A stretch of 64,000 nucleotides of DNA from positions 33,294,001 through 33,358,000 of the forward strand of contig CM068745.1 in NCBI GenBank assembly GCA_035084275.1, given 5' to 3'. Below, piece by piece: positions 17,801 to 20,800 of this stretch (its first letter is position 1; the number at the start of each line of letters is the position of its first letter). The notes under the pieces are model-generated. The model did not search any database. It was given only the letters and a program-made list of their open reading frames with translations, and was not told where the DNA came from. Source of the stretch: Hydrolagus colliei. Taxonomy: Eukaryota. The translations under genes were made by a program, and so were the position numbers.

Positions 17801-20800
17801 CGATATCGATATATCAGCATATATCAAAATGGCAAACCGATATATCGATATCGGAAAATTTCGATATCGATGGACCCTACTAAAAAAAGAACAATAACTT
17901 GGTAATTTCAATCCATGACTGTTTGTTGGACAGTGCTATGTGCAATTGGCTTCAGTGTTTCACCTATAAATATATTCAATTCACTGTACAATATATTCTG
18001 TGAAGTGCTTTGTGACATCTAGAAAACATGAAAAACACTATATCAAATGCAAGGATTATTATTGTTATTTACAAATCAATTAAATAATTTGCACAAACAG
18101 ACCTGCCATGATTATGCCAGTTACATTTTCTGTTGGCAATTTCAAACCTTGCCCCTTTAAGAGACTGTTTCTGACAGAATATAACCTATGTTGTTGGGAC
18201 ATCCTCCTGATCTACAAATGTAATTTTGTTGTTGTTGTTTTAAATTGTCAAGAAGCAGTCCAAACATGCACACAAATCTAGATAAGTCTTTGTTTGATCG
18301 ATAGTATGTTTTCAGTTTCTTCTTGATTGAATATTTCTTGATTGATGCCATGAATCAAATATTCAATCAAGAAAATGTATTTTTATTGGCCAACGACTGC
18401 CTCCTCTGAATGAAGCTACAAAACTGCAAATTATTATAAGAAATAATATTAATTCTTGCATTTGATATAATACTTTTTACGCCTTCTAGATGTTTCAAAG
18501 CTCTTCACAGAATGTAAGCTATGTTGTTGTAGAACTGTTGTTGTAGAATTCCCCATTAATATATCTTCTGGATTTTGCCATATTAGATAAATATAGAAAT
18601 ACCAAAACTCAGAGCTTGATGCACTGCCTTATAGTAAGAATATTTTTTTGTATCATCAATTTATATCTGTGCATATCTTTATTAACCCTTGTTAATAAAG
18701 TTTTTTTATTGTTGACTTTGATCCACCCATCATCTCAGCAGCAGCTTTAATTTTGTGGGTTTTACAAGAGTTTTCAACCATGTGAAATAGGGAAGATAGG
18801 AGTTCTAGATCAGTTAAATCTAAACTATTAAGACTTCATTTATTTCTGGTGTAAATCTGGATAACACTGCCACTTATATCCACATACACTAAATGGAATA
18901 GCCAAAGTGATGATACTTACTGTGTAATCTGGTCTGGGTGCAGACAGCCGGAAGAACACAAAAAGGCAATGCAAACACAATCAAGGTAATACAAGTAGAA
19001 GTGATTGTACATTATGCATGAAATGTTTTAATACTGAGAGAGTGTCACTACAAACTGGCAAAACATCTCATACCTTGTAGCCAATCCACCCCTTCTTGTA
19101 GCCCATCCCCTCTTATGGCATCACTGGCACTGAAATAAAACATAACCCCCATCAGATGCAAAGTGCTTTATAACATTCGCATTTAACAATAAAAATTATT
19201 GGCTTAAGATGATTTTTCTTAAACCATAGAAGGTAGCGCCCAATAAATAATATGCTGTCCAAGCTTCAGAATACATAGTGGTCAAAAAGGGAGAATAGCT
19301 GGAAAATAAAAACCTTGGGATTTTAAAACATTTTGTGTTGACATCAGTTGGGTGGCAAAAATTAGAGGAAATTGTGGGGGGGGGATCGGATATCAATATG
19401 CCCTTGATAGGAATGTGAACACACCATGAGTACAGTCCACCTGTACAGTCCCATTTTTAGATACTGCACTATCTCTCCCCATTTCACATGCCCCCATTTC
19501 ACATGCCCCCATGCCACCAAAAAAGCACTCCCTTCCTCCTTGAAACCCCCAGGCAATCTGTCTCTAAAGCCTCCTTGGTCAAACTAAAAGTGCATGCTAA
19601 AAGTGCAATGATTGTGATTCCACTTACCAAATATACCATGCCTTATCTTTGATATTTTCTAAACACAACAACTGTGAAACTTTGACAGATGACAAAGAGT
19701 CTCTGATATCCATTTTGTTTGCGAAAAATAAAATTGGAATTCGTTTGTGTTTAATATCTGAAAAAAAACAAATTAGTCCCAATGTATATTATTTGATAAC
19801 AAAAAGGTTTATTTTGTAACTACTACAAATGTACTATCACACTACAAAGGCATTTGAGTGGATACAAGTGATACATTTTTGGTGATTCAGTGCTCAACAA
19901 ATGAGAGCATATTATGCATTTTACAATTTTCCTACAATATTGTAGCACCAAAAATTTCAGTTGATACAGTATATGATTTCTCATATTTTATATTATATGG
20001 GGCAAATCAGCACAGGAGAACATCAAAAGTTTTAGATTTGTAACCTAGAGAAATCATTTATTTCTTTTCTCTCATGTGGAATATTACAGCAGTCTAGAAT
20101 TAATTTGTAATAAATTAATTATGCCACTTAATTGTATTTTAGCCAACAACTACACATTTGAAACATATATCCGAACACGTAGTGCAATATAGTAGCAAGT
20201 TAGATATTGTGAAATAGATGCGCACATGGCTAAGGGTTGGAGCACAGACCACAGAATGCGACTGCAAAAGACTCTTGTGATATTTTCCATATGCCCAGAG
20301 TTTTGTGGACAGTGTGAGTGACCTCCAATAGGAAACAGATGAGATTTCTATCACAGGTATGTTTAACACCAGCCACATTTAAGATCTCCAGGGTTCATTT
20401 TCTTATTTAGCTCACCGCTAGGTGGTAAACTAGCCTCTGAATTTCCAGACTGAAACATCCTAAAGTCTGTTTGGCAGCTTATCTTATGAGAAACTGGAGT
20501 AGAAGCCTTATTAATAAATTCACCAGTTCCCTTTTTACAATTAATTAATGTATAGAATATCCTTATGCCACCCTCTTTGGCAAACCACTTTTTAGGTTAT
20601 TGCCCTCAATGGAAGATGAATTAACATTTCTTAAAGGCAAAATGAACACAGGAAGCAAAGATAAATGATCCTACCTGGATGATTAAGAAGTGTGTCAAGT
20701 TCTTCTTTGGCAACTACCATCCTCAGCTTGTCACTGCTATCAATAACAAAAATGATGGCCTGGCCTTCCCTGCAGTGACCATGAAGAGTTATTACACTGT

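What the first reader, a model, noticed from the sequence alone, without database searches (positions are those of the whole stretch)
18921..18990. 13-nt frameshifting ARL6 microexon with a neural/retinal microexon-type 3' splice site
Seen: ACCAGATTACACA bounded by cag and gtaagt, 140 nt after exon 6; the upstream intron has a pyrimidine tract with TGC motifs, one within 10 nt of the AG. Inclusion shifts the last exon's frame, replacing DQIKAMKT* with [20 protein letters not shown] (198 aa). Established: a 13-nt exon generates the retina-enriched BBS3L isoform in mammals and zebrafish, and UGC near the 3' splice site marks SRRM3/4-dependent microexons. Inference: the isoform switch is ancestral to jawed vertebrates if this is a chondrichthyan, and gene predictors probably miss it.
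Basis: partly seen in the sequence, partly recalled or inferred. Interest (0 to 1): 0.7.

Follow-up and report, generated by a model that had tools for sequence, protein, structure and literature searches.

The report
Chimaera BBS3L retinal microexon, pre-duplication age
A 13-base stretch in a chimaera's ARL6 gene matches the tiny exon that gives humans, mice and zebrafish an eye-specific form of this cilium protein; it likely does the same in the chimaera's retina, and a matching exon predicted in the gene's ancient duplicate in bowfin suggests the switch is older than living jawed vertebrates.

Summary
Inclusion would turn a 186-aa protein into a 198-aa one. The genome is a chimaera's, and the gene is the true ARL6 orthologue by tree and synteny. 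The exon encodes DQITQ, identical to annotated long isoforms of frogs, turtles, birds and coelacanth, so it is the known BBS3L microexon: a new member, not a new system. Splicing and eye specificity are untested here because no RNA run was listed. SRRM3/4 control is likely but rests on human cell data; TGC alone is weak evidence, and zebrafish srrm3 loss shifts the exon only 8 points. New here: the genome holds a second, old ARL6 copy (ARL6b) on a paralogous contig. One bowfin ARL6b model carries the same DQITQ exon, while the chimaera's ARL6b lacks it. The exon therefore likely predates the ARL6/ARL6b duplication, probably the second vertebrate genome doubling. That dating rests on one automated record. 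The scan's earlier notes held nothing on this gene.

The parts
30015..30137 (-). ARL6 coding exon 1 (coding part, from the ATG; 123 nt)
24353..24414 (-). ARL6 coding exon 2 (62 nt)
23124..23192 (-). ARL6 coding exon 3 (69 nt)
20675..20769 (-). ARL6 coding exon 4 (95 nt)
19628..19757 (-). ARL6 coding exon 5 (130 nt)
19074..19129 (-). ARL6 coding exon 6 (56 nt), ends in phase 1
18934..19073 (-). 140-nt intron before the microexon: 98-nt AG-free stretch, pyrimidine-rich tract, TGC at -9, -35, -40, possible branch sites near -50 and -71
   Evidence: 5 of 874 AGs in the gene span have so long an AG-free stretch; the six other coding acceptors have 21-60 nt
18921..18933 (-). 13-nt BBS3L-type microexon; with the flanking bases it encodes DQITQ. 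An internal AG at 18930-18929 could give an 8-nt variant
18912..18920 (-). Microexon donor, full intronic consensus GTAAGT
14834..14882 (-). Coding part of the last exon, read in two frames: short-form stop at 14859-14857, long-form stop at 14836-14834
   Evidence: 10 of 2304 synonymous encodings of the short tail fit the long-tail profile as well as the real one

Best explanation
The 13-nt segment is the chimaera's counterpart of the BBS3L microexon of ARL6, and it is likely spliced in mainly in retinal photoreceptors, where it would swap the protein's last eight residues for a 20-residue tail. Shown: sequence, splice signals, frame arithmetic, orthology of the gene and identity of the encoded peptide with bony-vertebrate long isoforms. 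Inferred: most tissues skip it because it is too short for ordinary exon definition; in photoreceptors SRRM3/4 bound at the UGC nine bases before the acceptor would promote inclusion. Both stops lie in the last exon, so both mRNAs should escape nonsense-mediated decay. The GTPase core (residues 1-178) is unchanged, so the long tail likely tunes ciliary cargo traffic to the outer segment; its molecular action is not established in the papers read. The exon likely predates the duplication that made ARL6 and ARL6b.
For: Peptide: DQITQ follows WLQ in 15 of 361 proteins held (frogs, turtles, birds, coelacanth, a teleost, bowfin); the frog Gastrophryne tail matches 12 of 13 residues. Orthology: the window gene groups with sharks and rays (96/96) inside ARL6 proper (99/93). 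An Eph gene lies upstream and CRYBG3-like exons downstream on the same strand. Dual-frame signal in the last exon: 10 of 2304 encodings score as well. Acceptor: 98-nt AG-free stretch, 5 of 874. The mouse mutagenesis primer printed in PMC2841623 shows, if its changed bases are the AG and the G of GT (my inference), TGC at the same -9 offset and the same ACA and TAAGTATC around the donor. Literature: the 13-nt exon has retina PSI 89, 96, 90 and 53 against 4, 2, 1 and 1 elsewhere in human, mouse, chicken and zebrafish (PMC9303857 supplement). The human exon rises 41 points with SRRM3, 20-79 with SRRM4 and 0 with MSI1. Zebrafish bbs3L knockdown impairs vision and cone opsin localisation.
Against: No junction read was seen, so inclusion and tissue bias are carried over from bony vertebrates. 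0 of 10 cartilaginous-fish records seen carry the tail, and no other chondrichthyan genome could be read. TGC is common (37 of 240). Zebrafish srrm3 mutants lose only 8 PSI points at 5 dpf, so SRRM3 alone is not required there. Part of the tail's likeness is forced by the short frame: the exon-less ARL6b copy still reads a similar shifted frame (464 of 7776). The tail is five residues longer than the 193-aa forms of mammals and frogs. The early date rests on one automated bowfin model whose DNA and RNA support I did not see.
Confidence: 0.86

Rival explanations
1. The segment is a true BBS3L orthologue but is now vestigial or rarely included in this chimaera.
For: The chimaera's own ARL6b copy lacks the exon, so loss can happen; no cartilaginous-fish record seen has the long tail (0 of 10); the tail's end differs from other species.
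Against: Every residue of DQITQ, both splice sites and the long AG-free stretch are intact after about 450 million years, and the last exon's silent sites favour the long frame.
Confidence: 0.07
2. The exon is used, but its inclusion is driven mainly by something other than SRRM3/4 at the -9 UGC, such as low PTBP1, Musashi or other neural factors.
For: Zebrafish srrm3 mutants keep most inclusion (-8 points). TGC near acceptors is common here. PMC4991804 lists the Arl6 exon among photoreceptor-enriched exons in a Musashi study (passages).
Against: The human exon responds to SRRM3 and SRRM4 and not to MSI1. UAG is not enriched downstream (4 in 300 nt, 5.8 expected). srrm4 may compensate in zebrafish (inference). 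One SRRM_C family match exists in this genome.
Confidence: 0.2
3. The bowfin ARL6b exon does not date the exon: it arose by gene conversion, convergence or a model error, so the exon is only as old as crown jawed vertebrates.
For: It is 1 of 15 ARL6b-type records seen. Chimaera ARL6b lacks it. DQI repeats the start of the last exon (7 of 13 bases shared), so it could arise twice.
Against: The bowfin long tail is fully explained by its own last exon in the shifted frame (8 of 8; best of 10 other tails 5 of 8). The core is identical to the short bowfin ARL6b model. A tree forcing it into ARL6 proper is rejected (p-AU 0.008). All five residues match.
Confidence: 0.22
4. The segment is a chance intronic match, or only the 8-nt internal variant is used.
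For: 240 YAG-(3-27)-GTRAG pseudo-exons exist in the window, 5 of them 13 nt. An internal AG is present.
Against: Exact pattern match with 0.04 expected; rank 1 of 412; correct intron, strand, length and phase. The 8-nt product resembles no tail listed.
Confidence: 0.02

Closest known systems
BBS3L / ARL6 long isoform microexon (human HsaEX0005873, mouse MmuEX0006149, chicken GgaEX2002902, zebrafish DreEX0014775; PMC2841623, PMC9303857)
   Same: Same gene, last intron, 13-nt length, phase and frameshift into the last exon; peptide identical to frog, turtle, bird and coelacanth records.
   Different: First cartilaginous-fish case that my searches found; 198 aa against 192-195 in most records; mammals read EKT(I/V)Q; expression not shown here.
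Retina-enriched microexons (RetMICs) regulated by SRRM3/4 (PMC9303857; bioRxiv 10.1101/2024.09.17.613571)
   Same: Length under 27 nt, strong intronic donor, long AG-free stretch, UGC close to the AG, host gene in ciliary traffic.
   Different: It changes the frame, unlike most RetMICs, and the zebrafish orthologue barely responds to srrm3 loss.
Bowfin ARL6b isoform X1 (XP_066571137.1)
   Same: DQITQ followed by its own last exon in the shifted frame.
   Different: It belongs to the other old paralogue, and it is an automated model; this chimaera's ARL6b lacks the exon.

Membership tests
BBS3L (ARL6 long) microexon | Host gene is the ARL6 orthologue | tested here: met
   Tree 96/96 with elasmobranch ARL6, 99/93 for ARL6 proper; Eph and CRYBG3-like neighbours
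BBS3L (ARL6 long) microexon | 13-nt exon with AG/GT in the last intron that shifts the last exon's frame | tested here: met
BBS3L (ARL6 long) microexon | Encoded C-terminus homologous to known long isoforms | tested here: met
   DQITQ in 15 of 361 proteins; 12 of 13 residues with a frog record; last-exon part only partly independent
BBS3L (ARL6 long) microexon | Spliced in, and enriched in the eye | not testable with these tools
   No RNA run was listed
BBS3L (ARL6 long) microexon | Needed for vision or opsin localisation | not testable with these tools
   Shown for zebrafish and mouse only (PMC2841623)
SRRM3/4-dependent microexon | Length 3-27 nt, strong donor, distant branch point with long AG-free stretch | tested here: met
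   13 nt; GTAAGT; 98-nt AG-free stretch, 5 of 874; branch point not mapped
SRRM3/4-dependent microexon | UGC between branch point and AG | tested here: met
   TGC at -9, -35, -40, but background is 37 of 240
SRRM3/4-dependent microexon | Inclusion responds to SRRM3/4 | not testable with these tools
   Human orthologue responds; zebrafish srrm3 mutant changes by -8
Musashi-dependent photoreceptor exon | UAG clusters in the downstream intron | tested here: not met
   4 TAG in 300 nt, 5.8 expected; human orthologue unresponsive to MSI1
Ohnologue pair from the second vertebrate genome duplication (ARL6/ARL6b) | Both copies in cartilaginous and bony fishes, duplicated after the invertebrate split | tested here: met
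   Both clades hold chondrichthyan and bony-fish rows; ARL6b support 98/94 in one tree and 87/89 in the other; no lamprey or hagfish row
Ohnologue pair from the second vertebrate genome duplication (ARL6/ARL6b) | Copies on paralogous chromosome segments that split at 2R | tested here: inconclusive
   C6 and C21 share ARL13-like exons, tandem glypican pairs and ETS genes. The gene names are recalled. GPC3/GPC5 and ELF4/ELF1 are C/D sisters in PMC8040251, whose stored table does not list ARL6 or ARL13

The most novel reading that the evidence does not exclude
The BBS3L photoreceptor switch is older than the jawed-vertebrate genome doubling. An overlooked ohnologue, ARL6b, inherited the same 13-nt exon, kept it in bowfin, lost it in chimaeras and reaches the same frame by a shifted acceptor in coelacanth. 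That would date one retinal microexon to before the split of the two 2R progenitors (about 508 Ma in PMC10972751) and predict it in lamprey ARL6.
Probability: 0.6. Interest if true: 0.55.

Novelty: new member of a known kind. Interest (0 to 1): 0.4.

Why it matters
The claim that retinal microexons go back to the ancestor of jawed vertebrates was made from human, mouse, chicken and zebrafish only (PMC9303857, section 8). This supplies a cartilaginous-fish case for a disease gene whose long form is needed for vision. It shows that DQITQ, not the mammalian EKT(I/V)Q, is the likely ancestral peptide. The paralogue pair offers a natural with-and-without comparison of the tail and a way to date the exon relative to the vertebrate genome duplications. 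It does not reveal a new mechanism.

Tried and rejected
RNA test: no RNA holder listed; the one run found covers introns and gave no splice joints. This says nothing about expression. Structure: a model of the frog long isoform from a 30-row alignment had mean pLDDT 37 and was not used. First guess that the genome was not a chimaera's, because C. milii XP_007889237 is only 80% identical: wrong, that record is the paralogue and matches C21 at 94-100% in the exons aligned cleanly. Guess that C21 is the CBL/APP-type partner of C6: wrong, those partners are on C37. A decayed microexon in the C21 intron: no match at up to 4 mismatches, and the acceptor-exon alignment was no better than shuffles (935 of 1000); a longer intron alignment scored 17 of 1000 but in AT-rich sequence at non-matching positions. 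Eph exons within the window: none found. Cartilaginous-fish long isoforms in the protein collection: none among 10 records, but searches list only 120 representatives and 15 members per cluster. The ohnologue database supplement held (13 kb) had no ARL6 or ARL13A entry. Earlier scan notes: none by sequence, none relevant by words. Literature: eight searches listed no paper on BBS3L in cartilaginous fishes or on an ARL6 ohnologue; the library lacks most subscription papers, and files 13-18 of the PMC9303857 supplement and all bioRxiv supplements were not seen.

Full report
Observation. The 13 bases lie at 18933-18921 on the minus strand, between CAG and GTAAGT, 140 nt after the exon ending at 19074. 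I mapped six upstream coding exons from 30137 to 19074 and the last exon from 14882. Skipping gives 186 aa and inclusion 198 aa; both stops are in the last exon. An AG inside the segment could give an 8-nt exon in the third frame. One contig of the only listed public run spans the segment without a difference there; the run covers introns and may be the assembly's source.

Organism and gene. The 178-residue core is 94% identical to Heptranchias and Narcine ARL6 and only 80% to Callorhinchus milii XP_007889237. A search of the genome explained the gap: a second intron-containing copy on contig C21 matches that C. milii record at 94-100% in the exons that align cleanly. The genome is therefore a chimaera's, with two ARL6 genes. 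In a 53-row tree the window gene joins sharks and rays (96/96) inside ARL6 proper (99/93). The C21-type copy groups with coelacanth, reedfish, tarpon and bowfin records (98/94); I call it ARL6b. A 26-row tree gave 97/95 and a weaker 87/89. An Eph ligand-binding exon lies about 320 kb upstream and crystallin-domain exons matching a swallow CRBG3 record lie 27-50 kb downstream, all on the minus strand. The human order EPHA6-ARL6-CRYBG3 is recalled.

Is the segment the BBS3L exon? PMC2841623 (passages and Discussion read) describes a 13-bp exon that shifts the frame, is eye-restricted in zebrafish, and is needed for vision and cone opsin localisation. Among 361 proteins held, 70 had a long-type tail by my pattern and 15 had DQITQ directly after WLQ: frogs, turtles, birds, coelacanth, one teleost and bowfin, two of them truncated after these five residues. 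The best tail match was 12 of 13 residues (Gastrophryne). A splice-site-plus-DQITQ pattern matches once in the window, exactly, against 0.04 expected at two mismatches. Against a profile of 44 distinct long tails, bowfin left out, the segment ranks 1 of 412 AG-13nt-GT candidates. The profile rows were chosen by a pattern of my own, which favours tails of this type.

The last exon carries a weaker, partly independent signal. Its shifted frame is largely dictated by the short frame, and the exon-less C21 copy also reads a similar shifted frame. Of 2304 synonymous encodings of the window's short tail, 10 fit the long-tail profile as well as the real one, and 768 contain a stop. For C21 the figure is 464 of 7776. 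This fits dual-frame constraint in the window gene.

Regulation. The acceptor has a 98-nt AG-free stretch (5 of 874 AGs in the gene span; 21-60 nt at the six other coding acceptors), a pyrimidine-rich tract and TGC at -9, -35 and -40. This is the architecture described for SRRM3/4 targets in bioRxiv 10.1101/2024.09.17.613571 (passages). TGC alone is weak: 37 of 240 pseudo-microexons have one within 20 nt. The mouse primer printed in PMC2841623 suggests TGC at the same offset and the same donor context, if I read its mutated bases correctly (inference). In PMC9303857 (abstract, passages, sections 7 and 8, supplement rows) the exon has retina PSI of 89, 96, 90 and 53 in human, mouse, chicken and zebrafish, and under 4 on average elsewhere. 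The human exon rises with SRRM3 and SRRM4 and not with MSI1. Against simple SRRM3 dependence, zebrafish srrm3 mutants lose only 8 points. UAG motifs of the kind described in PMC4991804 (passages) are not enriched downstream (4 in 300 nt, 5.8 expected). The genome has one SRRM_C family match, not identified further.

Age. Bowfin XP_066571137.1 is an ARL6b model that ends with DQITQ and a tail. Its core is identical to the short bowfin ARL6b model. Its tail is explained at 8 of 8 positions by its own last exon in the shifted frame, which fixes the insert at 13 nt; ten other short tails explain at most 5 of 8. Forcing it into ARL6 proper is rejected (p-AU 0.008; the group was named after the trees were seen). 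It is the only such case among 15 ARL6b-type records seen. The chimaera's ARL6b has no AG-(3-30)-GTRAG candidate in its 678-nt last intron and no pattern match at four mismatches. A coelacanth ARL6b model reaches the same shifted frame without DQITQ (7 of 7), which fits an acceptor 5 nt downstream (inference).

C6 and C21 look paralogous. Each has an ARL13-like exon (56% identical to each other; ARL13B-type chains are the top PDB hits for the C6 exon and second to an engineered G protein for the C21 exon), a tandem pair of glypican genes and ETS-domain genes. The C21 copy also has a TRMT2-like exon beside it, a weak match below the curated cut-off. The names ARL13A/B, TRMT2B, GPC3-6 and ELF1/4 for these hits are recalled, not tested. 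PMC8040251 (passages and supplement rows, file cut when stored) places GPC3/GPC5 and ELF4/ELF1 in sister columns C and D, that is, split at 2R. PMC10972751 (passages) dates the 2R progenitor split at about 508 Ma and crown jawed vertebrates at about 456 Ma. The simplest reading is one origin before the duplication, with loss from chimaera ARL6b. No lamprey or hagfish sequence was available, so the upper bound is open.

Origin of the exon. Its first residues repeat the DQI that begins the last exon, which invertebrate ARL6 proteins also have, and 7 of 13 bases match. It may have arisen by duplication of the last exon's start, or been selected to finish the terminal helix, where PMC9303857 maps the insertion site. 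I could not tell these apart.

Comparison with what is known. This is a member of the BBS3L family on every feature that could be tested from DNA and protein; expression and function could not be tested. Eight literature searches listed nothing on BBS3L in cartilaginous fishes or on an ARL6 ohnologue. bioRxiv 10.64898/2026.09.05.749416 includes elephant shark but has no ARL6 in its main text; its supplements and others not seen may list the exon. PMC13450315 was seen as a listing plus one short supplement without hits.

Verdict. Real feature, known system, new member. Interest 0.4: the exon's presence in a chimaera is what a specialist would expect, while the overlooked paralogue and the pre-duplication date are new as far as searched but rest on one automated record.

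Noticed in passing
G000:C21:2699594-2709083 (+); L022, L023: A second intact, intron-containing ARL6 gene (ARL6b), an old paralogue shared with coelacanth, bichirs, bowfin, tarpon and bonefish. The C. milii record named ARL6 (XP_007889237) is this copy, not the orthologue of human ARL6, which matters for comparative studies that use elephant shark.
   Followed up: yes
P0270 (Latimeria XP_014341599.1): Coelacanth ARL6b isoform X1 reaches the long-form reading frame without the microexon, as expected from an acceptor 5 nt into the last exon (7 of 7 residues explained).
   Followed up: partly
window 18929-18930 (-): An AG inside the microexon could give an 8-nt exon and a third C-terminus of 186 aa.
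   Followed up: partly
P0094, P0428, P0214 against P0370, P0208, P0368: Three caecilians each have two ARL6 loci; in the tree the second copies do not join ARL6b, so their origin is unexplained.
   Followed up: no
P0015/P0153 against P0169/P0174: Both teleost copies of ARL6 proper have annotated long tails, so the exon survived that duplication in both.
   Followed up: partly
window 14834-14839 (-); L023:1588-1596: The shifted frame ends in cysteine just before the stop in both the window gene and ARL6b; it is not a CaaX motif and is not seen in the bony-vertebrate tails listed.
   Followed up: no
window 4277-4861 (-): A 194-aa low-complexity open frame between ARL6 and the crystallin-domain exons; possibly part of a large CRYBG3 exon, but it did not match the two swallow records.
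   Followed up: partly
window 33800-37760: Long simple repeats, including a purine-rich G run with GC up to 0.77 and two N stretches, upstream of ARL6.
   Followed up: no
window 13083-14416 (-) and other places: LINE-type reverse transcriptase fragments, named from recall of the translations.
   Followed up: no
G000:C529 and C530: Glypican matches with the same scores as C6:45.7-46.6 Mb, so these small contigs likely duplicate part of C6.
   Followed up: no
G000:C14:3.07-3.25 Mb: A dense tandem cluster with dozens of crystallin-domain matches.
   Followed up: no
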